Made by a program: the position numbers and the translations under genes | NCBI GenBank assembly: GCA_947629205.1 | Contig: CANRCV010000004.1 | Span: 441-64,440, forward strand | Origin: an uncultured Bacilli bacterium | Lineage (GTDB): Bacteria; Bacillota_I; Bacilli_A; RF39; UBA660 | Reading direction: 5' to 3' | DNA: 64,000 bases | Notes under the pieces: model-generated | Seen by the model: only the letters and a program-made list of their open reading frames with translations | The model's database searches: none | Told to the model about the DNA's origin: nothing | Part shown: piece by piece, positions 27,036 through 43,028 of the stretch | Layout of the letters: each line of letters starts with the position of its first letter | Numbering within the stretch: the first letter of the stretch is position 1

Positions 27036-28943
27036 TTATTTGTTTGGAGAAAGGACAATACGGAAGCCATTGTTGTTATGTGCTTCACCACCCATGTTAA
27101 CAAAGGCAAAGACACCAGCACCTGCACCATTTTCAACGGCACCGCCACGAACGAACCAAGGATAGGCACAAATAAACCAGGATTCATCTGCATACCAAAA
27201 GTTAATATTTCTTGGTTGAACTTTATCACTATAAATTTTTTGAACAAATGGTCCTAATTCTCCAGTTGCATCTCCTAGTATTCTTCGATTATATTGATTT
27301 CGATTTGTTCCATAATCATAAATATCATAATATTTAAAATAATCTGTTTCTTCACTAGTTTTAAATGGAATATCTTCTAAAGTAAAGCCACTTTCATAAA
27401 ATGTAAAACCACTATCATCTGTATTTTTCATTGCTCCCATTACATATTCCCAGGCACCTCCACTCATGTCATATACTCCAGTATAATTTTTAGTAGTACT
27501 TGCAACACTACTATCTGGATTTGTATAATTTATTGTATTATTTCCGTCTTGTAATGGTAGTTTATTCTCATAGTTATTGTAAGCATTAAATCCAACAATT
27601 GATTCTTCTGTTGCTGCATATCCTGTTACAAATCCAAGATTATTATTGTTTCTTACCTCTTTACATACTCCATTTTCACAAGTTCCATATTTAGAATGTG
27701 ATAAATATGCAACTGCTCCCCATTCTGTATTTTTCATTAAATGACTATCTAATTCTCTTTGATAATTATAACTCGTATTAAAAGCATTTTTAATATTTAT
27801 ATATCTCCAACTATATACATTTGGCTTTATTACTACTTTTGTTTTATCCACTACATTTGTTTTTTCTTTATTACTACTATTAAATGTAGAAGCATCTGCA
27901 CCTTTATATCCAGTTTCAAACTTTCCTACCCAAAATCCATTTGTATCAAATGCAGTAAATGCTGATGGTGTCATCCATTTATCTACTGCACATTCTCCAT
28001 TCTCTCCACTTGGTGGTGTTATACATTCTATTGTATTATCTACTGTATCATAGATTCCAAATTCTATTTCTATTTCTTGCGATTTTTCTTCATATTCATC
28101 TTGTGAAAGGCTATTATATTCTCCCATATTAAAGATTTTGTATTTATATTTTGGTATCCATACAAAATAACTTTCTATATTCTCTTCTTTTATAGTTCCA
28201 TCTTCTTCTATTATTCCATCATCTTTTAATATGACTGCATTCGCCCACTCTTTCTTAGAATAATCATACCATTCTTCTTCTATATTTGCTTTGGTTACTG
28301 TTCCATCATCTTCATTTATTTTTACTGGTATTAAATTATCTTTTATTACTGGATCTGCTCCATTTAATGTATCATCTGTATATACTTTTGCTAGTGTGTT
28401 TAATGTAGCATTGACTACTACCTTACTTTCAAAGATTTTATTCATGGATTCTTCATCTTCTACTGTTACATGTTCATCCATCCATAGTTTTAAACTATAT
28501 TCTTTACTTTCTTTTCCATTTAGTATTCCTGTTGCTAGTTCATATCCTTTTTTATATTTTTCTAATGTTGTTTCTTTTAAACTATTTAATATTCTTTTGG
28601 TATTACTATTTAATTGTACTGCTATATATTGACTATCTAAAGTTGTATTATTTGTTATACCTAAGTTTACTGTATAGTTAATACTTGTATCACATGTATT
28701 TTCTACTTTAAAAGTAAATGGTGTTAATTCTTTTGCTTCTTCATCTGTTATTGGGTATGCTTTTTCTAAATGAATAGCATCACTTTCATTTTCAAGAATC
28801 AAACTTAAACAATCACTTTGAATTTGATTCATACCTTGTTGTTCTGCAGTAGACGTCCACCATGCAAAACTAGAACCTATCATTACAATTACTGTAAAGA
28901 GCATTCCTACTACTAAATATTTTTTCTTTTTACTTTTTTCCAT
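27036..28943 (-). CDS. Secreted TasA/camelysin-like N-terminal module fused to C-terminal FGE-sulfatase (SUMF1-like) domain
   Basis: 635 aa; signal anchor then SSFAWWTSTAEQ (SipW-type motif, cf. TasA GGTWAAFND); N-domain paralogous to 53369..54088; C-terminal YDMSGGAWEYV...RGGAV...NNNGFRIVL matches FGE-sulfatase domain ends (YDMSGNVWEW...RGGSW...NIGFRCV). Confidence 0.7.
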   Translation of the reverse strand: MEKSKKKKYLVVGMLFTVIVMIGSSFAWWTSTAEQQGMNQIQSDCLSLILENESDAIHLEKAYPITDEEAKELTPFTFKVENTCDTSINYTVNLGITNNTTLDSQYIAVQLNSNTKRILNSLKETTLEKYKKGYELATGILNGKESKEYSLKLWMDEHVTVEDEESMNKIFESKVVVNATLNTLAKVYTDDTLNGADPVIKDNLIPVKINEDDGTVTKANIEEEWYDYSKKEWANAVILKDDGIIEEDGTIKEENIESYFVWIPKYKYKIFNMGEYNSLSQDEYEEKSQEIEIEFGIYDTVDNTIECITPPSGENGECAVDKWMTPSAFTAFDTNGFWVGKFETGYKGADASTFNSSNKEKTNVVDKTKVVIKPNVYSWRYINIKNAFNTSYNYQRELDSHLMKNTEWGAVAYLSHSKYGTCENGVCKEVRNNNNLGFVTGYAATEESIVGFNAYNNYENKLPLQDGNNTINYTNPDSSVASTTKNYTGVYDMSGGAWEYVMGAMKNTDDSGFTFYESGFTLEDIPFKTSEETDYFKYYDIYDYGTNRNQYNRRILGDATGELGPFVQKIYSDKVQPRNINFWYADESWFICAYPWFVRGGAVENGAGAGVFAFVNMGGEAHNNNGFRIVLSPNK

Positions 28944-29290: not shown

Positions 29291-32200
29291 TTAAAATAAA
29301 CTTAATTGACTTGTTTCTGGCATTCCATTAAAGATACCTAAAGTACGCATTTTTTCAATAGTTGATTGATTTACTTTTCCTCGATTACTAAAATCTTCTA
29401 CACTATAGAAAGGTTTTTCTTTTCTTTCTTCCATGATTTTAGTTGCAACAGCATCTCCAAGACCATCTAAACTACTAAATGGTAAGATTAATGCATTTTC
29501 ATCTTTTACCATAACAAAATCTTTTCCTTGACTCTTTTCAATATCAATCATTTTAAAAGATATACCACGAGCTGTTGCTTCTAAAGCTAGTTTTAAAGTT
29601 TCTAATAAAGATTCATCTTTCTTGGTAGTATCAAATCCTTTGGATTGAATTTCAAGTATCTTAGCTTTAATAGCATCATAGCCTTTTACCATACATTCGG
29701 CATCGAAATCAGTAAATCTTGTAGAAAAATACGTACAATAATAGACTAAAGGATTATGAACTTTATACCAAGCAATACGAAAAGCACTAGTTACATACGC
29801 TGCTGCATGGGCTTTTGGGAACATGTATTTTATTTTTTGACAAGAAGAAATATACCAATCGGGAATATTGTATTCTTTTAAGGTTTTTACATGTTCTGCC
29901 CATGTATCTGGCTCTTTACTGGCTTTTCCTTTACGAACAAATTCCATAATTTTAAAAGCTTTTAAAGCTGGAACTCCCTTGTTCATTAACTCAACCATAA
30001 TATCATCACGACATCCAATAACATCTTTAAATGGACAAATATTTTTTTGTATAAGTTCTTGAGCATTACCAAGCCATACATTTTCTCCATGAGCAAGACC
30101 AGATATTTTAACAAGTTCAGCAAATGTGGTTGGTTTGGCATCTTTAACCAATTGAATGGTAAATGGTGTACCAAATTCTGGAACCCCTAAAGTTCCCGTA
30201 TCACACATAATTTGTTCTTTACTAACTCCTAGTGATTTTGTTCCTTTAAATAAATCCATCGTTGCTTTATCATCCAGTGGAACTTTTGTTACATCATCTC
30301 CTGTTAAATCTTGAATCATTCTTAACTGAGTTGGATCGGTATGTCCTAAAATATCTAGTTTTAATACATCAGCATCAATGGCATGATAATCAAAATGCGT
30401 TGTTCTCCAATTGCTCGTTGGATCTTCTGCTGGAAATTGATAAGGTGTAAAATCTAAGACATCCATATAATCAGGGATAACAACAATTCCTCCTGGATGT
30501 TGTCCAGTCGTTCTTTTACATCCCGTACATCCTTTTGCTAATCGTTCAATTTCAATATTTCTTAAAATAATTCCCTTATTTTCACAATACCCTTTTACAT
30601 ATCCAAATGCTGTTTTTTCAGCAACAGTTCCTATAGTTCCAGCACGATACACATTATCGACTCCAAATAAAACTTTGGTATATTCATGAGCACTTGCTTG
30701 GTTTAAATCAGAGAAATTTAAATCAATATCTGGTACTTTATCGGCGTTAAATCCAAGGAAAGTAGCAAAGGGAATATCATGTCCATCTTTGGCCATAATA
30801 CTACCACAATTTGGGCATTTTTTATCTGGTAAATCAAATCCACAAGAATAGTTAACCCCAAAAGGATTTCCTTCTTCATCATTAAAAATACTTAATTTAC
30901 AGTTTGGACAACGATAATGAGCTGGCAAACTATTAACCTCCGTAATTCCCATCATATTGGCAACAAAAGAAGAACCAACACTACCACGAGATCCAACTAA
31001 GAATCCTTCATCATTAGAGTGTTTTACTAGCTTTTGCGCAATCAAATAAATAACATCATAATTGGCTCCAATAATACCTCCTAGTTTTTTTAAAGCTAGT
31101 TTATCTAACTCTTCATCGGTTGCTTTTTCTTCTAAATGTTTTTTAACCATATCCTTAACGGCATCTTTTCCTTTTAATATGGTTTCATGTATAAGAGCAT
31201 AAGCTTTTGCTTCTTCTTTTTCTTCCATTTTACAAGCATCTATTAAAGCATCACCATATAATTCTTTAGCCAAACGTTCTTCTATATTGATAGGAAGAGG
31301 GCTTCCATATAACAAATCTGCTTTATGATACACTAATTCGGTCATTGTTTCGACTGAATTTGGGATTCTAGGAGCAAAAGGTTTTTCGGTATTAATAATA
31401 ACCTCTATTTCTTCACATAAATCTTTTATTTTATTAGGATTATCTACAATAATTTCTTTTCGTGTTTCTTCATCTAAAAAGGCAAAATCTTCCATCATTT
31501 CTTCTGTTGTTTTTAAATATTGATTAGGAATTTCAATTCCTTTTCGATTTAAAGGATGTAGTTTTCCATTAAACTTTTGATTAATAATAATTTCACGATA
31601 AATTTTATCTTCTTTTTTTAAGTTATGAACATCCCCAGTAACAACAACCGGTTTACCAGCTTCTTTGGCTACTCTTATAATTCTTTTTAAATATTCTTGG
31701 GCTTCTAAAAGAGAAGAAAATTTTTCTCCTGGACCAATTAAATGAGAAAAAGCACTAATGGGTTGAACCTCAATATAATCATAGAAATTCATCATATTTA
31801 CTAATTCTTCATCTTCTTTTCCTGCTGCTTTATCAAATATTTCTCCATTAATACAACCAGATCCTATTAACAAACCTTCTCTTGCTTCAATAATATCTTT
31901 TCTAGGTATTTTTGGTTGTTCATTTTTATATAAATATTTGGTATTCGCAAGAGATACAATTTTAAATAAATTTTTAAGTCCTTCTCTATTTTTAGCAATC
32001 ATGGTAGCATGAAAAGGATAAGCAAATCGTACTAAATTTTCTTGATCGATATTCGAAAATAAATCATCGGTTGTTGTAATATTTTGATCATATAAAACTT
32101 TACACATTTTATAAAAAGCTAGAGCTGTTCCTTCTGCATCATAATCTGCTCGATGGTGTTTATCTTCATCCCATGGAACATCTAATCGTTTGGTTAGGGT

Positions 32201-33778
32201 TTGGAGTTTATGATTTGGCCATTCTGGATGTAACATACGGGCCATACTCATCGTATCTAAAACCGTTGGATTAAATTCTTTTAAATTGTATTTATTACAA
32301 GCTGCTCTCATAAAAGAAATATCAAATTTGGCATTATGCGCTACCATTGGTAAATCTTTGGCCCAATCTAAGAAACGACGCGTAACACTTTCTTCATCCT
32401 CTTTTCCTTTTAACATTTCATCTGTTATAAAGGTAAGTTCTGTTATTTTTTTAGGAATGGGTCTTTTTGGATCGATGAGTTCATCAAAACGATCTAAAAT
32501 CTTTCCATTTTGGATCTTAACCGCACCAATTTCGATCATTTGATCACTTCCAGCATAGAACCCAGTTGTTTCTGTATCAAATACAACAAAAGCATCTTCT
32601 AATAAATTAAAGGTACGATTATTAAAAATAATATCTACATCATCATTTACAACATTCATTTCTGCTCCATACAAAACTTTAAAGTGTTCACTTTCTTCTA
32701 ATCCTTTATTGACATCACAAACAACATGATATAGATCTGGAAAAGATTGAACACAGTTATGATCTGTTACCGCAATCGCTTTTTGACCAATTTTCATTGC
32801 ATGTTTTACTAAAGCTTTAGCATCAATAACTCCATCCATGGCACTCATCATGGTATGCGCATGTAATTCAACTCTAGGCCTATTTGTTTGTTCTTTTATA
32901 ATTTCTTCTTTTGAATCTATTTTTTCATAACGATTAAAAGTTAATACTAAATCTTTACTATATGTATCAAACTCGACTTTTCCTTGAAAACGATACCAAT
33001 TTCCTTCTTTAAACTCCTTTAAAGTTTTTTGATATTCTGCTTTATCCTTTTTAAAAATCTTAGCCAGTAAACTATTGGTTTGATCACTAATTTTTAACGT
33101 AATAATATTTACTTTTTCATGTTCTTTGGTATCAATTCCAAATACATAGGCTTCGACAATCACCTTTTTCATATCCCCCATAATATTTTGAATAGAGGTA
33201 ACTTCTCCTTCTATTTTGGGAAGAGTTGATTGTGTTTCTTTTAAAATAGGTATTTCACTGGTTCTTTCTTTTTCTAAATCTTGTTTTATTTCCCAGTTTA
33301 ATTCTTCATTTATTCGACTTGTTAATTCATATCCTAAAAAACCATATTGATATAAACTATTTAAAATGTTTTTCGCTTCTTTTTTAATTTCATTTTCTTC
33401 TACTTTTGATGCGGCTTCAATCGTTATAATTTCATCAACAATGGTAATGGGTGCTTCTTTTAAATTCACTAAAGAAGGTCTTTTTGTTGCTATTTCATTT
33501 ACAATTTCTTTTACATAGTACTCTACATCCTCTTTTTTAATTTCATCATAATGGATAAAAATAGAACACTCTTTTTCGCCTTTAATTTTATTATTTGCAG
33601 CCATTAAAAGTTTTTTAGCAATCGAAAAAGGCAAGATTTGCTTTAACTTTAAATAAACCTCAAATACATCTTTTTGTTTTTTATAAACGACTTTAGCAAT
33701 CGATGCACCTTCAAAAACACTTTCATCGACATCAAATTGTATACTCGTAAAAAATCTTTTTAATTCATCACTCATCAA
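29291..33778 (-). CDS. polC: DNA polymerase III alpha subunit, PolC type (with proofreading exonuclease)
   Basis: 1495 aa; OB fold, PHP, DnaQ-like exo (FVVFDTETTG...HNAKFDISF), Zn-finger CPNC...CPNCG, pol III alpha core. Confidence 0.95.
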   Translation of the reverse strand: MMSDELKRFFTSIQFDVDESVFEGASIAKVVYKKQKDVFEVYLKLKQILPFSIAKKLLMAANNKIKGEKECSIFIHYDEIKKEDVEYYVKEIVNEIATKRPSLVNLKEAPITIVDEIITIEAASKVEENEIKKEAKNILNSLYQYGFLGYELTSRINEELNWEIKQDLEKERTSEIPILKETQSTLPKIEGEVTSIQNIMGDMKKVIVEAYVFGIDTKEHEKVNIITLKISDQTNSLLAKIFKKDKAEYQKTLKEFKEGNWYRFQGKVEFDTYSKDLVLTFNRYEKIDSKEEIIKEQTNRPRVELHAHTMMSAMDGVIDAKALVKHAMKIGQKAIAVTDHNCVQSFPDLYHVVCDVNKGLEESEHFKVLYGAEMNVVNDDVDIIFNNRTFNLLEDAFVVFDTETTGFYAGSDQMIEIGAVKIQNGKILDRFDELIDPKRPIPKKITELTFITDEMLKGKEDEESVTRRFLDWAKDLPMVAHNAKFDISFMRAACNKYNLKEFNPTVLDTMSMARMLHPEWPNHKLQTLTKRLDVPWDEDKHHRADYDAEGTALAFYKMCKVLYDQNITTTDDLFSNIDQENLVRFAYPFHATMIAKNREGLKNLFKIVSLANTKYLYKNEQPKIPRKDIIEAREGLLIGSGCINGEIFDKAAGKEDEELVNMMNFYDYIEVQPISAFSHLIGPGEKFSSLLEAQEYLKRIIRVAKEAGKPVVVTGDVHNLKKEDKIYREIIINQKFNGKLHPLNRKGIEIPNQYLKTTEEMMEDFAFLDEETRKEIIVDNPNKIKDLCEEIEVIINTEKPFAPRIPNSVETMTELVYHKADLLYGSPLPINIEERLAKELYGDALIDACKMEEKEEAKAYALIHETILKGKDAVKDMVKKHLEEKATDEELDKLALKKLGGIIGANYDVIYLIAQKLVKHSNDEGFLVGSRGSVGSSFVANMMGITEVNSLPAHYRCPNCKLSIFNDEEGNPFGVNYSCGFDLPDKKCPNCGSIMAKDGHDIPFATFLGFNADKVPDIDLNFSDLNQASAHEYTKVLFGVDNVYRAGTIGTVAEKTAFGYVKGYCENKGIILRNIEIERLAKGCTGCKRTTGQHPGGIVVIPDYMDVLDFTPYQFPAEDPTSNWRTTHFDYHAIDADVLKLDILGHTDPTQLRMIQDLTGDDVTKVPLDDKATMDLFKGTKSLGVSKEQIMCDTGTLGVPEFGTPFTIQLVKDAKPTTFAELVKISGLAHGENVWLGNAQELIQKNICPFKDVIGCRDDIMVELMNKGVPALKAFKIMEFVRKGKASKEPDTWAEHVKTLKEYNIPDWYISSCQKIKYMFPKAHAAAYVTSAFRIAWYKVHNPLVYYCTYFSTRFTDFDAECMVKGYDAIKAKILEIQSKGFDTTKKDESLLETLKLALEATARGISFKMIDIEKSQGKDFVMVKDENALILPFSSLDGLGDAVATKIMEERKEKPFYSVEDFSNRGKVNQSTIEKMRTLGIFNGMPETSQLSLF

Positions 33779-33789
33779 GAATTCCTCCT

Positions 33790-36690
33790 TTATTTTTTAA
33801 TGATATTGTTTACATTTACTTGATACTTATCAAATCGTTTCGTAACTCTTCCTTGAATTTCTGCAATATCTTTCACTTTTAAATTTTCCAATAACCCAAT
33901 TTGTTTATGAAAAACAACAAAGGTAGAAGCATTGGTTTCATCACTTGCTTCCACAAATGCCATCTCTTCATTATTTTTTGTTTTGAGTCTCTTTATACTC
34001 TCTATTAATACCACGCATCTTACTTGTTTGTCAAAATAATTTTTTATATTTTTTAATTTCATAATGTTTGAATCATTATAAATACTTGTTGGATGATTGG
34101 TAATATAAAACCCATAGCTTTCTAATTCTTTTTGATTTACATTTTCTTCCATAGGATATTGTTCTAATACGGGTTTTAAAAGGAGTGGAGAATCTACACT
34201 ACTTACTAATTCTGCATAATTAAAAACTGCAGGTATATTTTTAAGTAGAGTTGTCATATTTCCAAATTCTTCTAAAATCCCAGCATAGATTAAAGATTCC
34301 ACCATTTTTGTCGTTATAGAATAAGGTTTCATTCTACTAACAAAATCTATAAAATCGGTAAAAAGCCCTTTTTCTCGTTCTTTTAATAAATCTTCTATAA
34401 AATGAGAACTTAAACCCTTTACAATAGAAAAAGGTAGTATCAATTGGCTTTCGATAATCTTATATTCTTTTTCACTTTTATTAATAGAAGGATGGACAAT
34501 TTCTAAATCTAATTTTTTAGCTTCTCTTAAATATTCTTTGGTTTTAATTTCACTCCCAATCGATAGATTTAATAAATTCGTCATAAAATACATAGGAAAT
34601 TTTACTTTTAAATAGGCCATTTGATACCCAATTAGAGCATAAGAAACAGAATGGGATTTATTAAAACCATATCCAGCAAATTTTAATATTAAATCGTATA
34701 ATTCTTCAATCTTTTGTTTTGGATAGCCTTTTTGTAAAGCTCCATTTATAAACTTAACTCGTTCTTGCTCTATAATTTCTTTTTTCTTTTTACTCATAGC
34801 TCTTCTTATAATATCTGCCTCTGAAAAACGATATCCACCAATTTCTACTAATATTTGCATAACTTGTTCTTGATACACAATAATACCTTGTGTTTCTTTT
34901 AAAATGGGTTCTAATTCTGGCAAAAGATAAGTTACTTTCTCTTTTTTTTCTTTTCTTCTTACAAAAGTAGATAAATTATCCATAGGTCCAGGACGATATA
35001 AGGCGATAACAGCCACTAAATCACTAAATTTTGTTGGTTTTACTTTTTGTAAAAAAGAACGCATTCCCATACTTTCAAATTGAAATATTCCAGTTGTATT
35101 GGCATCACTAAAGAGTTTTAAAACCTCGGCATCTTCTAAATTAATTTTATTAATATTTAAATGTTTCCCCGTATCTTTTAAAATTAAATCTAAAGTACTT
35201 GATAAAATATATAAATTTTTAATCGCTAATAAATCCATTTTTAAAAGGCCTAATTCTTCTAAGTATTCCATCGTAATTCCGGTTGATATAGAATTACCTA
35301 CTTTTAATATAGGAATAACATCATCTAAATTAACTCTTGATATAACTATACCTGCTGCATGTGTTGAAATATTTTTCTTAAATCCTTCTATTTTCATCGC
35401 CAGTTTATAAACCTTTTGTAAAGAAGAATTATTTTTTAACATATTTTTTACTTTTTCTTTTTCTAAATTCTCTTTTAAATTTTTATTTGGTTCTATTTCT
35501 TTTAAAAGTTGTTCAAAATGTCCATCTTCTATTTCTACTATTCTTGCTATTTCCCTTAATGCCAGTTTACTTTTTAAAGTAGCAAACGTCATAATTGAAG
35601 CTACTTTCTTTTCACCATAACGTTGTTTAATATATTCAATAACCTCTCCTCTTCGTAAGTTATCAAAATCAATATCAATATCGGGCATGGTTACTCTTTC
35701 TGGATTTAAAAATCTTTCAAAAAGCAAATGATATTTTAAAGGATCTATATCCGTAATCCCTAGAGTATAACAAACAAGGGAACCCACAGCACTCCCTCTT
35801 CCAGGACCTACATAAATATGATTCTTTTTAGCAAATAAAACATAATCATATACAATTAAAATATAATCCACAAATCCCATTTTATTAATAACACTTAATT
35901 CATACTCTAATCGTTTTTCATATTCATCTGTCACTTGATTATTTAATCTTTTCTTTAATCCTTTTTCCGTTAAATTTTTTAAATAAGCATAACGATCTTT
36001 TATTTCAGCATTATAAGAAGGAATATAATTTTCATTTTTAGGAATACAAATCGTAATTAAATCACTAAACTCTTTCGTTGTTTTTTGATCACTTTCATTG
36101 TCGTTTTCATGATAATAATTATTTTCATACTCTTTTAATTGATAATCTTTTGCTTTTGTATCCGTACGAATCATATTTAAATAATCTAAATAAAGTGTAT
36201 CTTCTTTTTTTAAAGAATGAATGTCATTTAAATAAACTATATTTTTACTTTGTAATAAAGCATGGGTTTTTTCTAATTCATTTTGGTATGCCAAATAAAC
36301 GATTTCATAAATAGAAGAAAGTTCTTTATAGTAAGAATAAGTTGCATAAGGAAGAACACATAGTATATTTTTTTTATAAAGTTCTAATTCTACAATACTA
36401 ATTTCTTTTTCCATCACAAGAGTATGAATTTTTAATAAATTTTGATATCCTACATAATCTTTAGAATATAAATAAATTGGTAGATGATTTAAGGTGATTT
36501 CTAAACCAATAATTGGTTTTATATTATTTTCTATACACTTATTATAAAATTCCATAACACCATATAAATTCTCATCTACAATAGCACAAGTTGAAATATT
36601 TTTTTCTTTTAAAAAATCTATTAAAGAATCAATGGTAATTGTACTTTTTAATAAGGAATAATCTGTTGTAATTTTAAGTGGTATAAGCAT
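33790..36690 (-). CDS. dnaE: DNA polymerase III alpha subunit, DnaE type
   Basis: ~967 aa from the third Met (RBS GGGGGAGGAA 8 nt upstream); PHP domain, GFNKSHSVSYA pol core motif, OB fold; directly downstream of polC. Confidence 0.9.
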   Translation of the reverse strand: MLIPLKITTDYSLLKSTITIDSLIDFLKEKNISTCAIVDENLYGVMEFYNKCIENNIKPIIGLEITLNHLPIYLYSKDYVGYQNLLKIHTLVMEKEISIVELELYKKNILCVLPYATYSYYKELSSIYEIVYLAYQNELEKTHALLQSKNIVYLNDIHSLKKEDTLYLDYLNMIRTDTKAKDYQLKEYENNYYHENDNESDQKTTKEFSDLITICIPKNENYIPSYNAEIKDRYAYLKNLTEKGLKKRLNNQVTDEYEKRLEYELSVINKMGFVDYILIVYDYVLFAKKNHIYVGPGRGSAVGSLVCYTLGITDIDPLKYHLLFERFLNPERVTMPDIDIDFDNLRRGEVIEYIKQRYGEKKVASIMTFATLKSKLALREIARIVEIEDGHFEQLLKEIEPNKNLKENLEKEKVKNMLKNNSSLQKVYKLAMKIEGFKKNISTHAAGIVISRVNLDDVIPILKVGNSISTGITMEYLEELGLLKMDLLAIKNLYILSSTLDLILKDTGKHLNINKINLEDAEVLKLFSDANTTGIFQFESMGMRSFLQKVKPTKFSDLVAVIALYRPGPMDNLSTFVRRKEKKEKVTYLLPELEPILKETQGIIVYQEQVMQILVEIGGYRFSEADIIRRAMSKKKKEIIEQERVKFINGALQKGYPKQKIEELYDLILKFAGYGFNKSHSVSYALIGYQMAYLKVKFPMYFMTNLLNLSIGSEIKTKEYLREAKKLDLEIVHPSINKSEKEYKIIESQLILPFSIVKGLSSHFIEDLLKEREKGLFTDFIDFVSRMKPYSITTKMVESLIYAGILEEFGNMTTLLKNIPAVFNYAELVSSVDSPLLLKPVLEQYPMEENVNQKELESYGFYITNHPTSIYNDSNIMKLKNIKNYFDKQVRCVVLIESIKRLKTKNNEEMAFVEASDETNASTFVVFHKQIGLLENLKVKDIAEIQGRVTKRFDKYQVNVNNIIKK

Positions 36691-36786
36691 AAGACATTCC
36701 TCCCCCATCATGGTATATTTTTATTATAACATGAACAAATGTTTAAGGGTATAGGTAAGTTTCAAAAAATGAAAAAAAGGAAAAAT

Positions 36787-37917
36787 TTATTTTCCTAAAT
36801 ATGTAATTCTTGCATATCCATTTCCAGAATTTCCAACCATTGTATTTTGTGTTCCATCATGTTTGGGCATAACCTCTTTCCCGGATTTCATTTCCGTATT
36901 TGTAAAAACAAGTCCGGAATAATGAATAGAATCTCCAGTATGTTGAATGTTATTTTCAACAGATTCTTGTTTTATGGCATTACATCCCTCATATCCAGAA
37001 ATAAAGGATGAACCACCTGAGGCTGAGGTTGCATTTGTAATTCCTTCACTACGACCACCATAATAGCCTCCTCCAGCACCAGCAACACCACAATCGCCAT
37101 TACCAACACTACCTGATCCAGCACATTGGCCATCTCCAACCCCACTTTGTCCTTTACCAAAAGCATAACCAGTTGTTTGATTGATTGCTGATTTTGTTCC
37201 AACTAAATCAGCAGATAAGCCACCTCCTGCTCCTGGAGCGTAACTCCAGCTAGCTCCTCCACCACCTGCTGCAACCATAATTCTAGATTTTAAACTAGCA
37301 AAAGAGTCCCACAAACCATTTACAAGACGAATGTCGGTGGCTCCTCCTCCACCACCACTACTTTCATCATCTGCTTTATCAGGAACACCATTACCACCAC
37401 CATTATATCCACCAAGAGATTCTACTCTTTTACTAGCATTTGCACCAGCACCACCTACATAAAGATATAATGTTTGCTCTTTTTGTAAGCTTATTTCACC
37501 TTTGGTATATGCACCATTTCCTCCATCATTATAAGACACACCTTGATAAAGAGATTTTCCACCTTCAGCTCCCCATAATTCTATTTTATATTTTCCTTGT
37601 AATGGTACTGTAAATGATTGTTCACTTCCTGTATAATCAAATGTCCATTCTGTTCCTTCTTTTATAATAAAATTAATGCTACATGTCGTTGGACTCTTTT
37701 TTAGACTTGATACAAATAATCCCCATCTCTCTGTATCCCATTCTCCAATGGCATCATTATCACATTCTACAATTATATCTCCATAGTTTCCTTTTTGTGG
37801 AACGGTATTTGTTGTTTCTCCATTTATTTTCAAAGCAATGATATTTACATCGTTTTTTAAACTAAAATCAGGTACAACGCCTTTTATAACATCAAAACTT
37901 TTTTCTGTTTTATACAT
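36787..37917 (-). CDS. Phase-variable surface protein with ALK/LTK-like glycine-rich domain; annotated ORF is the out-of-frame body of a longer gene
   Basis: 376 aa ORF; no RBS before its Met; reading frame open upstream through the G10 tract; Gly-rich region GGGYYGGRSEGITNATSASGGSSFISG resembles ALK GRD GGGGYIGGNAASNND...DGVSFIS (Pfam Gly_rich). Confidence 0.7.
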   Translation of the reverse strand: MYKTEKSFDVIKGVVPDFSLKNDVNIIALKINGETTNTVPQKGNYGDIIVECDNDAIGEWDTERWGLFVSSLKKSPTTCSINFIIKEGTEWTFDYTGSEQSFTVPLQGKYKIELWGAEGGKSLYQGVSYNDGGNGAYTKGEISLQKEQTLYLYVGGAGANASKRVESLGGYNGGGNGVPDKADDESSGGGGGATDIRLVNGLWDSFASLKSRIMVAAGGGGASWSYAPGAGGGLSADLVGTKSAINQTTGYAFGKGQSGVGDGQCAGSGSVGNGDCGVAGAGGGYYGGRSEGITNATSASGGSSFISGYEGCNAIKQESVENNIQHTGDSIHYSGLVFTNTEMKSGKEVMPKHDGTQNTMVGNSGNGYARITYLGK

Positions 37918-38035
37918 AGCAAAAGTATGGTATAGTGTTATACCACCAATTAATAAAATAATTCCTATAATTGTACTAATTAAAATTTGTTTTTGTTTTT
38001 TATTTTTGATAAATCTTTCTAATCTAGGTTTGTGT

Positions 38036-38098
38036 TTATCTAATATACCCCCCCCCCAGACTAGACTCTAGAGTTGGGAGGTTTTTATTTTTCTTCAT
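38036..38098 (-). other. Leader ORF ending just after the G10 tract (OFF-state product of the phase-variable gene)
   Basis: GGAGGAAG RBS + ATG 38098; encodes MKKNKNLPTLESSLGGGYIR-stop; a 9-G allele would fuse it in frame to ...ILDKHKPRLERFIKNKKQKQILISTIIGIILLIGGITLYHTFA-MYKTEKSF (TM anchor). Confidence 0.7.
38048..38057 (-). repeat. Homopolymeric G10 tract (C10 on + strand) inside 5' coding region
   Basis: Ten consecutive C at 38048..38057; frame analysis shows G9 (or G12) gives an in-frame full-length protein. Confidence 0.9.
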
Positions 38099-38123
38099 TT
38101 TTTCTTCCTCCTACTATACTTTT

Positions 38124-38152
38124 ATTATAAACGAATTTCTTATTCTTGAAAA
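38124..38152 (-). promoter_or_regulatory. SigmaA-type promoter of phase-variable gene copy A
   Basis: Minus strand TTTTCA(38152..38147)-17 nt-TATAAT(38129..38124); identical in copy B. Confidence 0.5.
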
Positions 38153-38181
38153 GTTTTTTTCATAGTAATCCCTATTCTTCC

Positions 38182-38229
38182 TTTGACAATTAAACTGAAA
38201 TTTCATCATTTTTCAGTTTAATTGTCAAA
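38182..38229. repeat. Perfect palindromic element (19-bp stem, 10-nt loop), copy 2; likely terminator of upstream paralog
   Basis: tttgacaattaaactgaaa-tttcatcatt-tttcagtttaattgtcaaa; core and loop shared with 22081..22118. Confidence 0.75.
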
Positions 38230-38234
38230 TACTT

Positions 38235-39371
38235 TTACTGATTTTCATTTATAAATATTCTATAAGGATTTTGTTGAGTTCCATTACCACTTTGAAATAA
38301 TACTTTTGATTTAAGATAGAAAGACGGATAAATTTTAGTATTACTATAATATCCAGCATGAAAGTTCCATAATTGGCCTGTTTCATCCATGTACCATGCA
38401 TCTGGATTCCCAGAGATCGTTGTTGTCAAAAACCATTGTTTGTTCTTGCTAAATATCCAATTATTTATTACACATGAGCTATTATCACTCTCATTATTCC
38501 ATAGTTTTAAAGATTGTTGCATACATTGTGTTCTAGTTTTTAAAGCTGATCCGCTTGTTGCATATCCATAATCACTTGCATATATTAATCCAATTTTTGT
38601 ATTAGTTGATTTAGAATAACCATCACGAACACTATTTCCACGTTCTGCTTTATAAAATTCAGTTACGGTACTTAAATTGGTTTCCCCTAAATACCATTTT
38701 GCAATATCAATATACGTTTGATATGATTTTATACTACCCCAAAATTCTTCATTTAAAATATTTGTATTTAATTCGCTACTAATCCAATTATTTTGTTGTA
38801 ATTCTGGATGTCCATACCAAGAAGCTTCACTGTAGTTAACATATTTAATTAATTTTACTCTATCTTCATAAATTCCATTCTCACTTGATTGAGTAGGTAT
38901 TATACCTATAATTCGATATAAATTGTTTTCACTACATTCTCCATTTTCTTCTAAACATACATAGTTATTAGGATTAGCACCTATATATCGATAGTCCGTT
39001 TTAGCACTTTCACCAGTTTGATCAGTAGCTTCGTGTGTTTGCACTATTAATCCACTTGCTCCATCTGCAACATTTGTTACTTTTGATTTTAAATAAGTAG
39101 AAAATATTGGAGCATTAAAATCAATGGTACATTTAATTCTACTTTGATTATTGCTGTTTTTTAATTTTAAAGACCATGTTGTATCATCCCAATCTGCTTC
39201 TACTCCACCATCACATTTTATATCTTTCTTAGTAAATCCTTCATTTTGATTAGGAAAAGAAACATCACTTGTTTTTACACCATTTATACTAAAAGCAAGT
39301 GTTACATCTCCACTACTAAAATCAGGCACAACACCTTTTATAACATTAAAAGACTTTTCCATTTTATACAT
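38235..39371 (-). CDS. Phase-variable surface protein paralog (divergent C-terminal domain); annotated ORF is out-of-frame body
   Basis: 378 aa; first ~85 aa homologous to 36787..37917 product (MYK.EKSF.VIKGVVPDFS...EWD..W); C-terminal Trp/Tyr-rich domain ending GNGTQQNPYRI; same upstream architecture. Confidence 0.7.
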   Translation of the reverse strand: MYKMEKSFNVIKGVVPDFSSGDVTLAFSINGVKTSDVSFPNQNEGFTKKDIKCDGGVEADWDDTTWSLKLKNSNNQSRIKCTIDFNAPIFSTYLKSKVTNVADGASGLIVQTHEATDQTGESAKTDYRYIGANPNNYVCLEENGECSENNLYRIIGIIPTQSSENGIYEDRVKLIKYVNYSEASWYGHPELQQNNWISSELNTNILNEEFWGSIKSYQTYIDIAKWYLGETNLSTVTEFYKAERGNSVRDGYSKSTNTKIGLIYASDYGYATSGSALKTRTQCMQQSLKLWNNESDNSSCVINNWIFSKNKQWFLTTTISGNPDAWYMDETGQLWNFHAGYYSNTKIYPSFYLKSKVLFQSGNGTQQNPYRIFINENQ

Positions 39372-39486
39372 AGCAAAAGTGCGGTATAAAGTTATACCAC
39401 CAATTAGTACTATGATTCCTACTATTGTACTAATTAAAATTTGTTTTTGTTTTTTATTTTTAATAAATCTTTCTAATCTAGGTTTA

Positions 39487-39549
39487 TTATTTAATATACC
39501 CCCCCCCCAGACTAGATTTGCTGGTTGGGAGGTTTTTATTTTTCTTCAT
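39487..39549 (-). other. Leader ORF ending after G10 tract, copy B
   Basis: ATG 39549; MKKNKNLPTSKSSLGGGYIK-stop; G9 allele fuses to ...ILNNKPRLERFIKNKKQKQILISTIVGIIVLIGGITLYRTFA-MYKMEKSF. Confidence 0.7.
39499..39508 (-). repeat. Homopolymeric G10 tract (C10 on + strand) inside 5' coding region, copy B
   Basis: Ten consecutive C at 39499..39508; same -1 requirement for in-frame fusion as copy A. Confidence 0.9.
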
Positions 39550-39574
39550 TTTTTCTTCCTCCTACTATATTTTT

Positions 39575-39603
39575 ATTATAAACGAATTTCTTATTCTTGA
39601 AAA
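39575..39603 (-). promoter_or_regulatory. SigmaA-type promoter of phase-variable gene copy B
   Basis: TTTTCA(39603..39598)-17 nt-TATAAT(39580..39575), within a block nearly identical to copy A. Confidence 0.5.
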
Positions 39604-39655
39604 GTATCTTTTTTCATATTAATCCCTTTTAAGATATCATCGAATATCAAAATAA

Positions 39656-40738
39656 TTAATTGCTACAATTATTGTAGCATTTTTTCATATAATCATCTGT
39701 CATACCTGCAATAAAGTCAATGACTTTACGTGCTATTGTTGTACTACTTATATACTCTTCTGTCATATCTTTTAAGAATTTTTTATAAATCTCTGATTTG
39801 GTATTATGTATTTCAATATCATTTTTATATTTATCAAATAAAGTTCTAAACATCTTCTCATACATTTTAATCTCTTGTTTCGTATTGGCTTTTAAATAAA
39901 TATTTTCCATATTAAAGGCTTTTAAATCCACTAAAGCTTTAAAAATGGGTTTACTCATTTTAATATAAGGTTTTCCTTTACTATTTTTGATGATATCACT
40001 TACAAAAGTATTGACGATATTTTTATTTTCTTCTCCAATTAACTTGGTAATATTTTTGGGTAAGTTTTCTTTTTTGATGACACCTAAACGGATGGCATCT
40101 TCAATATCTTTTCCAATGTATGCAATAATATCACTAATTCTTACAACACAACCTTCTAACGTCATAGGTCTTAATTTTTTAATCATTCTCTTATCCACAT
40201 AGCATTGTTTATATTCCTCTAAAAACTCTTCTTTTGTTTTTTTAACAGGACGATATTCATTTAAAGGAAGTTCTCCGTTATGACACATAATAGCATCCAA
40301 AACTTGAACCGTTATGTTTCTACCACGGCCATTTTGTTCTAGATTCATTAAAACACGAACGCTTTCTATATTATGATTGAAATAGCCTTCTCCATTTTCT
40401 AAACTAATTTCATTTAAAATACTTTCTCCCACATGACCAAAAGGAACGTGTCCTAAATCATGACCAAGAGCTGCTGCTTCAATTAAGTCTTCATTTAATT
40501 TTAAGTTTCTGCCAATAGTTCTAGCTATTTTACTTACCAATTGAACGTGGATCATACGTTTTGTAATATGATCATCTTCATTGTAACTAAACACTTGGGT
40601 TTTATCTGCATATCTCGTATAACTCAAGGAATAAATAATACGATCAATATCACGAAAAAAATCCGTTCTATACGGGTCTTTTTCTTCTTTTTTTAAACGA
40701 ATAGCTTCTTCATTTACACAAGCATAGCGACTCAACAT
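39656..40738 (-). CDS. dgt: dGTPase-like HD-domain deoxynucleoside triphosphate triphosphohydrolase
   Basis: 360 aa; HD motif AALGHDLGHVPFGH and downstream His/Asp. Confidence 0.75.
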   Translation of the reverse strand: MLSRYACVNEEAIRLKKEEKDPYRTDFFRDIDRIIYSLSYTRYADKTQVFSYNEDDHITKRMIHVQLVSKIARTIGRNLKLNEDLIEAAALGHDLGHVPFGHVGESILNEISLENGEGYFNHNIESVRVLMNLEQNGRGRNITVQVLDAIMCHNGELPLNEYRPVKKTKEEFLEEYKQCYVDKRMIKKLRPMTLEGCVVRISDIIAYIGKDIEDAIRLGVIKKENLPKNITKLIGEENKNIVNTFVSDIIKNSKGKPYIKMSKPIFKALVDLKAFNMENIYLKANTKQEIKMYEKMFRTLFDKYKNDIEIHNTKSEIYKKFLKDMTEEYISSTTIARKVIDFIAGMTDDYMKKCYNNCSN

Positions 40739-40754: not shown

Positions 40755-43028
40755 CTACTCCTCCGGTTCTTCCTCTTTCAGTTTCACTAAAACCTCTCTT
40801 GGTTTTGAACCATTTTGTGGTCCTATTATACCTCTTTCTTCTAATAAATCAACTATTCTGGCAGCACGATTATAACCAAGTCTAAATCTTCTTTGTAAAA
40901 GAGATGCACTGACCTTACCAGTTTCTAAAGCAAATTTAACCACTTCATCGTAAATTGGATCATCTGTATCATCATTAAATGGAGCAACACCACTTATAGA
41001 ATCGGTAGATTCACTACCCACATTCATTAAAGATTCATCATAACTGGCTTCTTGTTGTTTACTAACAAATTTAATAATACGTTCAATTTCATCATCAGAA
41101 ATATAGCAACCTTGAATACGAGTTGGGAATGGTGCTCCCATTGGTTGATAAAGCATATCTCCTTTCCCAAGTAGTTTTTCTGCACCCGGTGCATCTAGTA
41201 TGGTACGAGAATCAATGTAACTGGCAACCGAAAATGCTATACGTGATGGAATATTCGTTTTAATAACACCCGTAATAATATCGGTAGATGGTCTTTGGGT
41301 TGCTACAATTAAATGAATTCCAGCTGCACGAGCAAGTTGAGTAATACGCATGATCGAATCTTCTACTTCTTTTCTGGCAACAATCATTAAATCCGCCATT
41401 TCATCCACAATGACAACTAAATAATTCATTTTGGCTTGCGGATTATTGGGATGGCGTTCATTTTCACTTTCTATTTTTTTGTTGTAATCGGCAATATTTT
41501 TAACCCCTTTTTCTGCTAATACTTTATAACGACGATCCATTTCCCCTACTACTTTTTGTAAAACAAGACTGGCGCGTTTTGGATCGGTTACAACTGGAGC
41601 TAGTAAATGCGGTATACCATTGTAATTCGATAGTTCTACTTGTTTTGGATCTACTAAAACCAGTTTTACCTCATCAGGTCTATAATGCATTAAAAGAGAA
41701 ATAATAATACTATTAATACAAACAGACTTACCACTACCCGTAGAACCTGCAACTAGTAAATGTGGCATCGTCGTTAAATCGGCATTAATCGTACGTCCTG
41801 CTATATCTTTTCCTAAAGTAACCAGTAAACCTTTTTTAATTTTATCAGGATTGGCATCTCCAATTACTTCTTTTATTTTAACACTACTAACCTCTTTATT
41901 GGGTATTTCAACTCCTATGGTACTTTTACCAGGAATTGGAGCTTCAATACGAACATCTTTAGCAGCAAGAGCAAGAGCAATTTCTTTGTTAATGCTACTT
42001 ACTCGACTCAACTTAGTACCTGTTGGTACAACCACCTCGTATTGCGTAACAGCAGGACCTACATGTATTTCTACAACTTTTCCTTGAATTTGAAAATCAT
42101 TTAAAACACGTTCTAAACATTCTTTATTACTACGAATAAACTCTGTAGAATTTACTTTTTTATTACGAGTTACCTCATCTAAAAGCGTAAGTGGTGGCAA
42201 TTTATACGTTGAATTTACGAATTCATTATGTATTTCACTTTCCTCAATTAATTTTGGTTCATTTTTAGTTGGATGTGGTTTTAATTCTTCTACACTCGTA
42301 ATTACAATTTTATCATCAGGTTCTGTTACCCCTGTAATTGGTAAATCCAGATTTTTCTCTTTCTTGGCTTTTTTATGAAATATTTTTCCAAAAACTGTTC
42401 CTATATTGATATTAAATACCATAATTAAACCAAATAAAGTTAAAATAGAAATCACAATATAGGTTCCCGTTAAACCAAATAAAACGGATACTAAAAAAGA
42501 TAATGTAGCTCCTAAAATTCCTCCTCCAATGACAATAGAGGTTTGTCCCGTACTGGTTAGAATCTCTGCTTTATTAATGGAATCCATTCGATCCATATAA
42601 CTACTAATCGTTTCTTGAAATATTTCTACTGGTTTTGCACAATTCTTAACAAAACTAATATGAGATAAAATTAAAATAACAGCAATTAAAATATAAATAC
42701 CAATTAATTTTGAAGATACAAAATTAGGTAATTTACGTTTTATCAGCATATGAATTCCTAAAACGAATACTAAAATTAAAGCACAAAACCACCATTCACC
42801 AAGTAAAAACATGGCAAATTCTTTAATAATAGCTCCCACAGGTCCAAAGCCAAAACCAATAAGTCCTATTAAAATTAAAATAAGACCTGTAAGTTCTACA
42901 CTATATTCAAATTTATTTTTACTTTCCTCTTTTGATTTTTTTTTCTTTGCCATATGCTTCACCATACTCATTATAGCAAGTTGCTTATTTTTTTGCAAAA
43001 AAAAGTGCCTACTTGACACTGAAATCAT
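40755..43028 (-). CDS. ftsK: DNA translocase FtsK/SpoIIIE
   Basis: 757 aa; N-terminal 4-5 TM, linker, motor domain with Walker A GSTGSGKS, C-terminal winged-helix gamma domain. Confidence 0.9.
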   Translation of the reverse strand: MISVSSRHFFLQKNKQLAIMSMVKHMAKKKKSKEESKNKFEYSVELTGLILILIGLIGFGFGPVGAIIKEFAMFLLGEWWFCALILVFVLGIHMLIKRKLPNFVSSKLIGIYILIAVILILSHISFVKNCAKPVEIFQETISSYMDRMDSINKAEILTSTGQTSIVIGGGILGATLSFLVSVLFGLTGTYIVISILTLFGLIMVFNINIGTVFGKIFHKKAKKEKNLDLPITGVTEPDDKIVITSVEELKPHPTKNEPKLIEESEIHNEFVNSTYKLPPLTLLDEVTRNKKVNSTEFIRSNKECLERVLNDFQIQGKVVEIHVGPAVTQYEVVVPTGTKLSRVSSINKEIALALAAKDVRIEAPIPGKSTIGVEIPNKEVSSVKIKEVIGDANPDKIKKGLLVTLGKDIAGRTINADLTTMPHLLVAGSTGSGKSVCINSIIISLLMHYRPDEVKLVLVDPKQVELSNYNGIPHLLAPVVTDPKRASLVLQKVVGEMDRRYKVLAEKGVKNIADYNKKIESENERHPNNPQAKMNYLVVIVDEMADLMIVARKEVEDSIMRITQLARAAGIHLIVATQRPSTDIITGVIKTNIPSRIAFSVASYIDSRTILDAPGAEKLLGKGDMLYQPMGAPFPTRIQGCYISDDEIERIIKFVSKQQEASYDESLMNVGSESTDSISGVAPFNDDTDDPIYDEVVKFALETGKVSASLLQRRFRLGYNRAARIVDLLEERGIIGPQNGSKPREVLVKLKEEEPEE

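What the first reader, a model, noticed from the sequence alone, without database searches (positions are those of the whole stretch)
37917..38152. Translational phase-variation switch: G10 tract between a leader ORF and a membrane-anchored surface protein gene (copy A)
A perfect TATAAT promoter and a GGAGGAAG RBS drive an ATG at 38098. In the sequenced state (10 G on the coding strand, 38057..38048) this yields only MKKNKNLPTLESSLGGGYIR, ending at a TAA 9 nt past the tract. The 376-aa ORF in the track begins at an internal Met with no Shine-Dalgarno. Its frame is open upstream straight through the G tract. Removing one G (G9, or G12) puts the leader in frame and produces MKKNKNLPTLESSLGGG-ILDKHKPRLERFIKNKKQKQ-ILISTIIGIILLIGGITLY-HTFAMYKTEKSF... 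This gives a short cytoplasmic tail, a TM signal anchor and the ectodomain. I checked codon by codon that no stop occurs in that frame between 38067 and 37917. This is the classic slipped-strand mispairing ON/OFF switch known from Neisseria and Campylobacter. Here it sits in a very low-GC Firmicute, where a G10 run is compositionally extraordinary. The sequenced allele is in the OFF state.
Basis: seen in the sequence. Interest (0 to 1): 0.9.

Follow-up and report, generated by a model that had tools for sequence, protein, structure and literature searches.

The report
Poly-G on/off switch for surface proteins
A run of ten G's in the first codons of a membrane-anchored surface-protein gene puts the gene out of frame, and related gut bacteria carry the same switch on dozens of paralogous genes, with G-run lengths that differ between near-identical strains; this is classic phase variation, found here in an uncultured spore-forming gut Firmicute.

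Summary
G10 (38057..38048, minus strand) separates a 20-aa leader (ATG 38098, good promoter and SD) from a 376-aa ORF that has no start signals of its own. G9 or G12 gives a 436/437-aa protein with a basic N-tail, one TM helix, a beta stalk and an ALK/LTK-type glycine-rich ectodomain. Copy B (G10 at 39508..39499) has the same design.

Relatives carry the same leader-plus-G-tract cassette on many paralogues, at least 31 in one rabbit-gut MAG. Tracts of G8 to G12 occur, and in-frame full-length alleles exist. One orthologous locus sampled in 7 assemblies has 3 SNP columns in 770 nt but G8, G9 or G10. Paralogues without the cassette start directly at MKLEKF. This is slipped-strand phase variation, a known mechanism in a new family and lineage.

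One feature is new. An invariant CCUCCC in the leader, kept by the rare Leu codon CTC, is complementary to both the G tract and the SD. Folding predicts that SD accessibility depends on tract length. This is untested. No reads were available for the window's own locus.

The parts
38124..38152 (-). Promoter-like site of copy A: TTTTCA, 17 nt, TATAAT
   Evidence: Consensus scan, 10 of 12 matches. The same site stands before copy B at 39603..39575.
38104..38111 (-). Shine-Dalgarno GGAGGAAG, 5 nt upstream of the leader ATG
   Evidence: Read from the sequence. An SD of type GGAGG is present in all family cassettes.
38036..38098 (-). Leader ORF in the sequenced G10 state (MKKNKNLPTLESSLGGGYIR, then stop)
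38076..38081 (-). Invariant CCTCCC element (anti-SD mimic) inside the leader codons N-L-P-T; complementary to the G tract and to the SD
   Evidence: 41 of 41 distinct leaders use CTC-CCA, although CTC makes up 1.5% of Leu codons in the window's genes. It pairs with the tract in the minimum-free-energy folds.
38047..38082 (-). Predicted hairpin: ACCUCCC pairs with the 3' six G's plus U, and an inner stem lies between
   Evidence: dG about -20 kcal/mol. The inner segment folds better than its own shuffles in 10 of 11 subfamily representatives. Alignment-wide covariation is weak.
38048..38057 (-). G10 tract, the switch
38036..38042 (-). Stop codons closing both OFF frames just after the tract: TAG 38042..38040 (G8/G11 frame) and TAA 38038..38036 (G10 frame)
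   Evidence: Across the family, 44 of 45 distinct cassettes stop within 4 codons in both OFF frames, against 14% at control positions.
37930..37986 (-). Transmembrane signal-anchor (ILISTIIGIILLIGGITLY), translated only in the ON frame
   Evidence: KD 2.45; modelled as helix 33-60.
36787..37917 (-). The 376-aa ORF as listed, starting at an internal Met after the TM helix; it is the 3' part of the real gene
   Evidence: P0001. No SD upstream.
36796..37599 (-). ALK/LTK-type glycine-rich (TG) ectodomain, residues 167-434 of the ON product
   Evidence: Pfam PF12810, E 3.4e-53. The AF2 model has pLDDT mostly 80-98 here. Foldseek hits LTK/ALK structures 7nx1, 7mzy and 7lrz at E about 1e-9.
38235..39603 (-). 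Copy B: same promoter, SD, leader (ATG 39549), CCTCCC, G10 (39508..39499) and TM, with a different ectodomain (ORF 39371..38235)
   Evidence: G9 gives 437 aa. The 5' cassette is 85% identical to copy A over 372 nt.

Best explanation
Copy A is a contingency gene. A strong promoter and SD start translation at ATG 38098. Fourteen codons later the ribosome meets a hypermutable G tract. At G10, the sequenced state, translation stops after 20 residues. The TM anchor and ectodomain are then not made, and no canonical start exists downstream before the TM helix. Replication slippage to G9 or G12 fuses the leader to the body. The result is a type II membrane protein: a basic cytoplasmic tail, one TM helix, a beta stalk and an ALK/LTK-like glycine-rich ectodomain displayed on the cell surface. 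The leader and tract form a portable switch cassette shared by a paralogous family of surface proteins with interchangeable ectodomains. Most copies rest OFF and a few are ON, so each cell shows a random subset. Shown here: the anatomy, the frame logic, the existence of ON alleles, natural tract-length polymorphism in relatives, and the fold of the product. Inferred: that switching happens at this locus, its rate, and surface exposure.
For: Frame logic. Improbability of the tracts. Copy B has the identical design. There are 47 homologous leader cassettes in MAGs of gut Bacilli: G8 x3, G9 x2, G10 x38, G11 x4, with frame always following length. One MAG has at least 31 distinct cassettes, 2 of them ON. 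In-frame alleles: G9 in L039, L052 and L057, and G12 in L180. Full-length proteins: P0002, P0064, P0121, P0122, P0189, P0241. Near-identical sequences differ at the tract: L057 against L025 is 99.25% identical with a single gap, G9 against G10. Seven assemblies of one locus have 3 SNP columns in 770 nt but G8, G9 or G10, matching the 418-aa (OFF) and 517-aa (ON) gene calls. Both OFF frames are closed within 4 codons in 44 of 45 cassettes, against 14% expected. Paralogues without a tract begin at MKLEKFNKNKKQK with their own promoters. Product: TM helix and positive-inside tail; AF2 pLDDT 82 and pTM 0.75; ALK/LTK TG-domain fold. C. jejuni tracts are likewise held at G9-G10 by mutational bias (PMC8355987).
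Against: There are no reads or sister genomes for the window's own organism, so length variation at 38048..38057 itself is not shown. G10 is strikingly uniform (38 of 47), which a purely neutral random walk would not give; it needs a mutational attractor or some other constraint. The polymorphic assemblies have low to moderate coverage (2-14x), so some length calls could be homopolymer errors. However, G8 was found in two independent assemblies, one of them at 13.8x coverage. Whether the organism lacks mismatch repair is unknown.
Confidence: 0.72

Rival explanations
1. Programmed recoding from a fixed G10. In this reading the ribosome shifts +1 on GGG_G, helped by rare GGG codons and by the G run acting as an SD-like element, as in prfB. 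Alternatively, RNA polymerase slips on the run. Either way a constant fraction of full-length protein is made without any DNA change.
For: G10 is the consensus in 81% of cassettes. A +1 shift on G10 gives the ORF frame. GGG is a minor Gly codon at 4.3 per 1000. 'GGGGG UAU' resembles the prfB shift region (own knowledge). A conserved RNA hairpin involves the tract.
Against: Tract lengths in all three frames (G8/G11, G9/G12, G10) occur among intact paralogues, and between near-identical strains at one locus. Recoding sites are normally fixed. The 0-frame stop is 3-4 codons after the run, not at the shift site. At one locus G10 is itself the in-frame state. Transcriptional slippage is documented mainly for A/T runs (own knowledge). 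A third G10 sits in a promoter spacer where translation is irrelevant.
Confidence: 0.1
2. Homopolymer miscount in sequencing or assembly. The true state would be G9, the gene is simply intact, and nothing varies.
For: Long G runs are error-prone on several platforms. The platform for this contig is unknown. All three tracts in the window read exactly 10.
Against: G10 is also the call in 38 cassettes from at least 6 independent, mostly SPAdes short-read, MAGs, alongside G8, G9, G11 and G12 calls in the same assemblies. A systematic +1 error would not leave G9 calls in the same genome. The promoter tract has no frame to 'repair'.
Confidence: 0.06
3. Decaying pseudogenes. The frameshift would be a fixed inactivating mutation in redundant paralogues.
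For: Most family members are out of frame in the consensus. A few are truncated soon after the tract (L049, L053, L054).
Against: The bodies stay open for 250-600 codons in the single correct frame in 39 cassettes. The lesion is always at the same tract and nowhere else. The promoter, SD, leader and OFF-frame stops are conserved. The ectodomains fold with high confidence.
Confidence: 0.05

Closest known systems
Campylobacter jejuni poly-G contingency genes (phasome)
   Same: G8-G11 tracts in coding regions switch genes ON and OFF by frame. There are tens of loci per genome, and lengths are concentrated at G9-G10 by insertion/deletion bias (PMC8355987). Most targets are surface structures.
   Different: In Campylobacter the tracts arose independently in unrelated genes at varied positions. 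Here one homologous 5' cassette (promoter, SD, leader, CCUCCC, tract, OFF-frame stops) heads a single paralogous family with swapped ectodomains. The host is a walled, spore-former-like low-GC Firmicute.
Neisseria pilC and other poly-G genes with the tract in the signal-peptide coding region (hmbR, hpuA and others)
   Same: A G tract in the first codons, before the export or anchor signal, decides whether the surface protein is made (own knowledge; hmbR/hpuA in PMC3786947, listed).
   Different: Those are Gram-negative outer-membrane or pilus proteins with cleaved signal peptides. No complementary C-rich partner element has been described.
Mycoplasma variable surface protein families (M. hominis Vaa poly-A frameshift; M. 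hyorhinis Vlp promoter poly-A)
   Same: A multigene family of variable surface proteins in low-GC Bacillota relatives, with a conserved 5' region, divergent C-terminal parts and homopolymer-driven switching (own knowledge).
   Different: Those are lipoproteins with a lipobox and use poly-A tracts. Here there is no lipobox, the protein has an uncleaved TM anchor, the tract is poly-G and the organism is walled.
prfB (RF2) +1 programmed frameshift
   Same: A G-rich SD-like stretch followed by UAU, and a need for a +1 shift to reach the main ORF.
   Different: There is no stop at the shift site, the tract length is not fixed, and in-frame alleles are common.
ALK/LTK extracellular TNF-like + glycine-rich (TG) domain, Pfam PF12810
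   Same: The ectodomain of copy A matches the Pfam model (E 3.4e-53) and the solved LTK/ALK structures by fold.
   Different: This is a bacterial, membrane-anchored protein with no kinase. Its ligand is unknown, and sequence identity to ALK/LTK is only 16-20%.

Membership tests
SSR (slipped-strand) translational phase-variable gene | Homopolymer of hypermutable length (G/C of 8 or more) inside the coding region, far above compositional expectation | tested here: met
   G10 at 38057..38048. Expected 0.14 G8-pattern matches, observed 9 matches in 3 tracts. No G/C runs of 7-9 nt in the window.
SSR (slipped-strand) translational phase-variable gene | Changes of plus or minus 1 repeat unit toggle between full-length and truncated product | tested here: met
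   G9 and G12 give 436 and 437 aa. G8, G10, G11 and G13 give 18-21 aa.
SSR (slipped-strand) translational phase-variable gene | Tract length is polymorphic between closely related strains or within populations while the flanks are conserved | tested here: met
   Met in relatives. Seven assemblies of one orthologous locus have 3 SNP columns in 770 nt and G8 x2, G9 x1, G10 x4. L057 against L025 shows G9 against G10 in 99.25% identical DNA. This was not testable for the window's own locus.
SSR (slipped-strand) translational phase-variable gene | Reversible, high-frequency ON/OFF switching in a clonal lineage | not testable with these tools
   Needs reads, colonies or reporters.
Programmed +1 ribosomal frameshift (prfB type) | Fixed shift site with a slow or stop codon in the A site at the shift, conserved among orthologues | tested here: not met
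   The stop lies 3-4 codons after the run. All three frames occur among alleles.
Mycoplasma-type variable lipoproteins | Lipoprotein signal peptide with a lipobox Cys | tested here: not met
   There is no Cys before or at the end of the hydrophobic segment. The model shows a continuous helix 33-60.
ALK_LTK_GRD (PF12810) domain proteins | Match to the family model above its gathering score, and the corresponding fold | tested here: met
   181.6 bits against a cutoff of 24.5. Foldseek probability 1.00 to 7nx1, 7mzy and 7lrz.
Type IV pilin-like (N_methyl, PF07963) GRD proteins seen among distant homologues | Prepilin leader ending in G followed by F/M-T-L-x-E and a hydrophobic helix | tested here: not met
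   There is no PF07963 hit for copy A. The N-terminus is KNKKQKQ-ILISTIIG with no cleavage motif.

The most novel reading that the evidence does not exclude
The tract may do two jobs at once. The invariant CCUCCC in the leader mimics the 16S anti-SD and can pair either with the gene's own SD or with the G run. Folding predicts that short tracts (about G9 or less) leave CCUCCC free to sequester the SD, while tracts of about G10-G11 or more capture it and free the SD. Expression would then depend on tract length through both frame and initiation: G9 in frame but weakly initiated, G12 in frame and fully initiated, G10/G11 making the leader only. That is a graded, multi-state switch built from one homopolymer, and it would also explain why the family rests at G10.
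Probability: 0.2. Interest if true: 0.8.

Novelty: new member of a known kind. Interest (0 to 1): 0.6.

Why it matters
Phase variation in gut commensals is mostly discussed in terms of invertible promoters. Large repeat-driven phasomes are textbook features of Campylobacter, Helicobacter, Neisseria and mycoplasmas. Here an uncultured, walled, spore-former-like gut Bacilli lineage appears to run dozens of poly-G switches from a single portable leader cassette. The cassette is placed in front of surface proteins with exchangeable binding domains, including ALK-like glycine-rich and lectin-like or IgA-peptidase-like types.

There is a practical consequence as well. Gene callers systematically mis-annotate these genes as N-terminally truncated, anchor-less proteins, as with the 376-aa and 378-aa ORFs here. 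The assemblies also often break at the cassette. The conserved anti-SD mimic next to the tract gives a concrete, testable hypothesis for length-dependent translational gating.

Tried and rejected
- **JGI metagenome scan with family peptide patterns.** It gave 600 pattern hits, none confirmed.
- **DNA pattern CCTCCCAAC-N(12-22)-G8-T.** The JGI metagenome scan gave 120 or more hits and the IMG/VR scan gave 2. All sit in unrelated contigs of 37% GC or more, so they are chance matches.
- **RNA and structure databases.** Rfam gathering scan of the window found nothing. No tRNA or tmRNA genes were found in the window. PDB sequence searches with both ON products found nothing.
- **Word-indexed protein search with the N-terminal profile.** Lys-rich words swamped it and it returned only 16 fragments. 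The exhaustive representative search worked better.
- **Exact-product look-ups.** The look-ups of P0001, P0002, P0003 and P0064 found no contigs.
- **Alignment-wide covariation test of the hairpin.** It was weak: the outer stem is invariant, the inner stems use different registers, and 34 of 500 shuffles reached the observed score. The hairpin therefore rests on per-sequence folding and codon-usage arguments, not on covariation.
- **Considered and rejected.** A lipoprotein and a pilin-like N-terminus were ruled out (see the membership tests). A prophage or mobile context was also ruled out, because the locus lies between ftsK/dGTPase-like and dnaE/polC genes.
- **Literature.** Four searches found no description of this family or of poly-G phasomes in this lineage.

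Full report
**1. The observation**

On the minus strand the window reads TTTTCA, 17 nt, TATAAT (38152..38124), then GGAGGAAG and ATG at 38098. Fourteen codons follow, then ten G's at 38057..38048, then TAT ATT AGA TAA.
- The 20-aa leader ORF (38098..38036) and the 376-aa ORF (37917..36787) are both listed mechanically.
- The long ORF's frame is open upstream to 38067, through the tract. It contains no ATG/GTG/TTG before the Met at 37917, and that Met has no SD.
- Editing the tract in silico gives 436 aa at G9 and 437 aa at G12. It gives 18-21 aa at G8, G10, G11 and G13.
- The window is 28% GC. G/C homopolymers number eight of 5 nt, one of 6 nt, none of 7-9 nt and three of exactly 10 nt. A G8 pattern is expected 0.14 times and found 9 times, in 3 tracts.

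**2. Surroundings in the window**

The locus is chromosomal. ftsK (40755..43028) and a dGTPase-like HD gene (39656..40738) lie upstream. dnaE (33790..36711) and polC (29291..33778) lie downstream. PBP2, a PASTA kinase and GerA germination genes in the window indicate a walled, spore-former-like Firmicute.

Directly upstream of copy A lies copy B (ORF 39371..38235). It has the same promoter, SD and leader (ATG 39549) and a G10 at 39508..39499. It is also OFF at G10, and gives 437 aa at G9. The two copies share an 85% identical 5' cassette of about 370 nt, running from the promoter through the TM helix to '...VVPDF', and then diverge completely.

The third G10 (16763..16754) sits inside the spacer of a TTGACA-16-TAAACT promoter-like site. 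That site precedes a GNAT acetyltransferase gene and a 394-aa ORF.

**3. The product**

The ON translation has three main parts:
- a Lys-rich tail (11 K/R against 3 D/E in the first 38 residues);
- one strongly hydrophobic segment (residues 38-56);
- a C-terminal domain matching Pfam ALK_LTK_GRD at E 3.4e-53.

An AlphaFold2 model built on 40 homologues has pLDDT 82.4 and pTM 0.75. Residues 1-24 are disordered, 33-60 form a helix, 87-144 form a beta stalk, and the glycine-rich domain is confident. Foldseek places that domain with the solved LTK/ALK TG domains (7nx1, 7mzy, 7lrz; E about 1e-9).

Copy B's ectodomain has no Pfam match but folds confidently (pLDDT 85). Its only significant PDB neighbour is the Thomasclavelia ramosa IgA peptidase (9qa6, E 2.4e-6), followed by weak C-type-lectin-like hits.

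By the positive-inside rule both proteins are N-in, C-out signal-anchored surface proteins. This topology is inferred.

**4. The family**

A protein search found full-length in-frame homologues carrying the same leader. Examples are P0002 (430 aa, 68% identical, MKKKNKNLPTSNSSLGGGILDNHKPRLE...) and P0064. It also found truncated calls such as P0003.

Scanning one genome per species for the N-terminal module gave 56 loci. Nearly all come from gut MAGs labelled uncultured Bacilli, Tenericutes or Erysipelotrichaceae, from rabbit and mouse among other samples. Main results:
- **Tract census.** Of the 47 leader-associated tracts (45 in these loci, 2 in the window), 38 are G10, 4 are G11, 3 are G8 and 2 are G9.
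- **Frame logic.** In every cassette of that first census the in-frame lengths are G9 and G12.
- **Copies per genome.** One MAG (Lapin-021 bin68) has at least 31 distinct cassettes: 25 G10, 3 G11, 1 G8 and 2 G9.
- **Ectodomain types.** The bodies fall into at least three large types (20, 8 and 7 members), plus singletons and a second anchor type. The switch cassette is therefore modular.
- **Constitutive paralogues.** About 15 paralogues lack the leader and tract altogether. They start at MKLEKFNKNKKQK, just before the TM helix, behind promoters of their own.
- **Family size.** An exhaustive HMM search of 1.84 billion representatives found only 285 family members at E of 1e-3 or better. Most are of this constitutive type. 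About 10 include the leader in frame, and about 9 are alternative-start calls of OFF alleles.
- **OFF-frame stops.** Both OFF frames are closed within four codons after the tract in 44 of 45 distinct cassettes. At control positions in the window's genes the figure is 14%.

**5. Does the tract really vary?**

ON alleles were confirmed at the DNA level. L057 has G9 and encodes P0121. Its 400-nt 5' region is 99.25% identical to L025, and the single gap is G9 against G10. L180 has G12 and encodes P0122.

The strongest test is one orthologous locus, downstream of a PFOR gene, recovered from seven independent assemblies (L181-L187).
- Over 770 aligned nt there are three SNP columns. The tract is G10 in four assemblies, G8 in two and G9 in one.
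- These lengths match the 517-aa and 416-418-aa gene calls within one 90% protein cluster.
- At this locus the hairpin loop is one nt shorter, so G10 is the ON length.

G10 is therefore modal whether it is ON or OFF. That points to a mutational attractor or structural fit, not to selection for OFF. C. jejuni tracts are similarly confined to G9-G10 by insertion/deletion bias (PMC8355987).

Two caveats apply. Coverage of these assemblies is 2-14x. And none of this is the window's own organism.

**6. A conserved partner element**

Every leader contains CCTCCCAAC 14-18 nt upstream of the tract. It encodes an invariant L-P-T.
- All 41 distinct leaders that still have this stretch use CTC for Leu. 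CTC makes up 1.5% of Leu codons in the window's genes. This indicates nucleotide-level constraint, though shared ancestry is a caveat.
- In single-sequence folds, (A)CCUCCC pairs with the last six G's (plus U). The intervening 14-18 nt form an inner stem whose sequence differs between subfamilies: CCAUUG/CAAUGG, CUUCAGG/CCUGGGG, CCAGACG/CGUCGG. Free energy is -20 to -23 kcal/mol.
- Shuffling only the inner segment gives weaker folds in 10 of 11 representatives, five of them at p of 0.033 or less.
- The alignment-wide covariation test is weak, with 34 of 500 shuffles reaching the observed score. The outer stem never varies and the inner registers differ.

CCUCC is also the complement of the gene's own SD. 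Partition-function folding predicts that the CCUCCC element pairs with the SD when the tract is about G9 or shorter, and with the tract when it is about G10-G11 or longer.
- Mean SD accessibility rises from 0.0-0.3 to 0.6-0.99 across that range in copies A and B.
- The same rise appears in 12 of 14 diverse family members.
- The dependence vanishes when CCUCCC is replaced by synonymous codons.

This is a thermodynamic prediction only. I treat it as a hypothesis, not a finding.

**7. Mechanism and rivals**

The rivals are:
- **Recoding from a fixed G10 (0.10).** The uniformity of G10 and the prfB-like look of the site suggest it. Alleles in all three frames, the distant 0-frame stop, the locus where G10 is in frame, and the promoter tract all argue against it.
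- **Homopolymer miscall (0.06).** This is unlikely, because many independent short-read assemblies also call G10 and report other lengths alongside it.
- **Pseudogenisation (0.05).** The bodies stay intact for 250-600 codons, the lesion always falls at the same tract, and the cassette is conserved. All of this contradicts it.

**8. Comparison and novelty**

In mechanism this works like the poly-G contingency genes of Campylobacter and Neisseria. In organisation it resembles the mycoplasma variable-surface-protein families. It is not a lipoprotein, not pilin-like, and not a prfB-type frameshift (see the membership tests).

Four literature searches found no description of this family or of a poly-G phasome in this lineage. 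I rate it a new member of a known kind. One anatomical novelty, the anti-SD-mimic partner of the tract, could make it a new variant if its function is confirmed.

Interest is 0.6. The result is solid and of real use for annotating and understanding uncultured gut Firmicutes, but the core mechanism is classical.

Noticed in passing
window 16745..16772 (minus strand), tract 16754..16763: A third G10 lies inside the spacer of a promoter-like site, TTGACA-16-TAAACT. The site precedes a GNAT acetyltransferase ORF (16719..16285) and a 394-aa ORF with a C-terminal hydrophobic segment (16268..15084). G11 would give the optimal 17-nt spacing. This is a candidate transcriptional poly-G switch.
   Followed up: partly
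window 38235..39603 (minus strand): Copy B has the same promoter, SD, leader, CCTCCC, G10 (39508..39499) and TM helix, but an unrelated ectodomain. The best structural neighbour of that ectodomain is the Thomasclavelia ramosa IgA peptidase (9qa6), followed by weak C-type-lectin-like hits.
   Followed up: yes
window 27036..28943 (minus strand): This 635-aa ORF belongs to the same surface-protein superfamily. It has a second anchor type ('...SSFAWWTSTAEQQG') and the C-terminal domain of the largest family type. It has no G tract, so it is a constitutive paralogue. In relatives the same anchor type also occurs behind the switch cassette (L029 at 5441, L042 at 2526, P0189, P0241).
   Followed up: partly
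window 38182..38229: A perfect 19-bp inverted repeat (TTTGACAATTAAACTGAAA / TTTCAGTTTAATTGTCAAA, 10-nt loop) lies between the stop of copy B and the promoter of copy A. It is probably the terminator of copy B, but no T run follows it.
   Followed up: no
L181-L187 (about 75-115 in L181): In this orthologous locus the hairpin loop is 1 nt shorter (ataacct against ataagcct). G10 is therefore the ON length, and four of seven assemblies are ON at G10. The modal G10 is independent of ON or OFF state.
   Followed up: yes
L057 compared with L025 and L002: The 5' 400 nt of L057 match L025 (99.25%), while its body matches L002 (99%). This is either recombination between paralogues at the shared cassette or a chimeric short-read assembly. 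Several MAG contigs also end at or within the cassette (L012, L023, L033, L042).
   Followed up: partly
window 38140..38163 and 39590..39616 (minus strand): A conserved mini-ORF (MKKTFQE* in copy A, MKKDTFQE* in copy B) overlaps the -35 region of both copies. It may only reflect conservation of the promoter region.
   Followed up: no
P0128 (65-aa fragment), P0064: Some homologues keep the leader but have lost one of its elements. P0128 reads ...EASQTRKKLFEDIL..., with no LPT and no GGG. P0064 has SLST in place of LPT. These are possibly alleles locked ON. Their DNA could not be retrieved.
   Followed up: no
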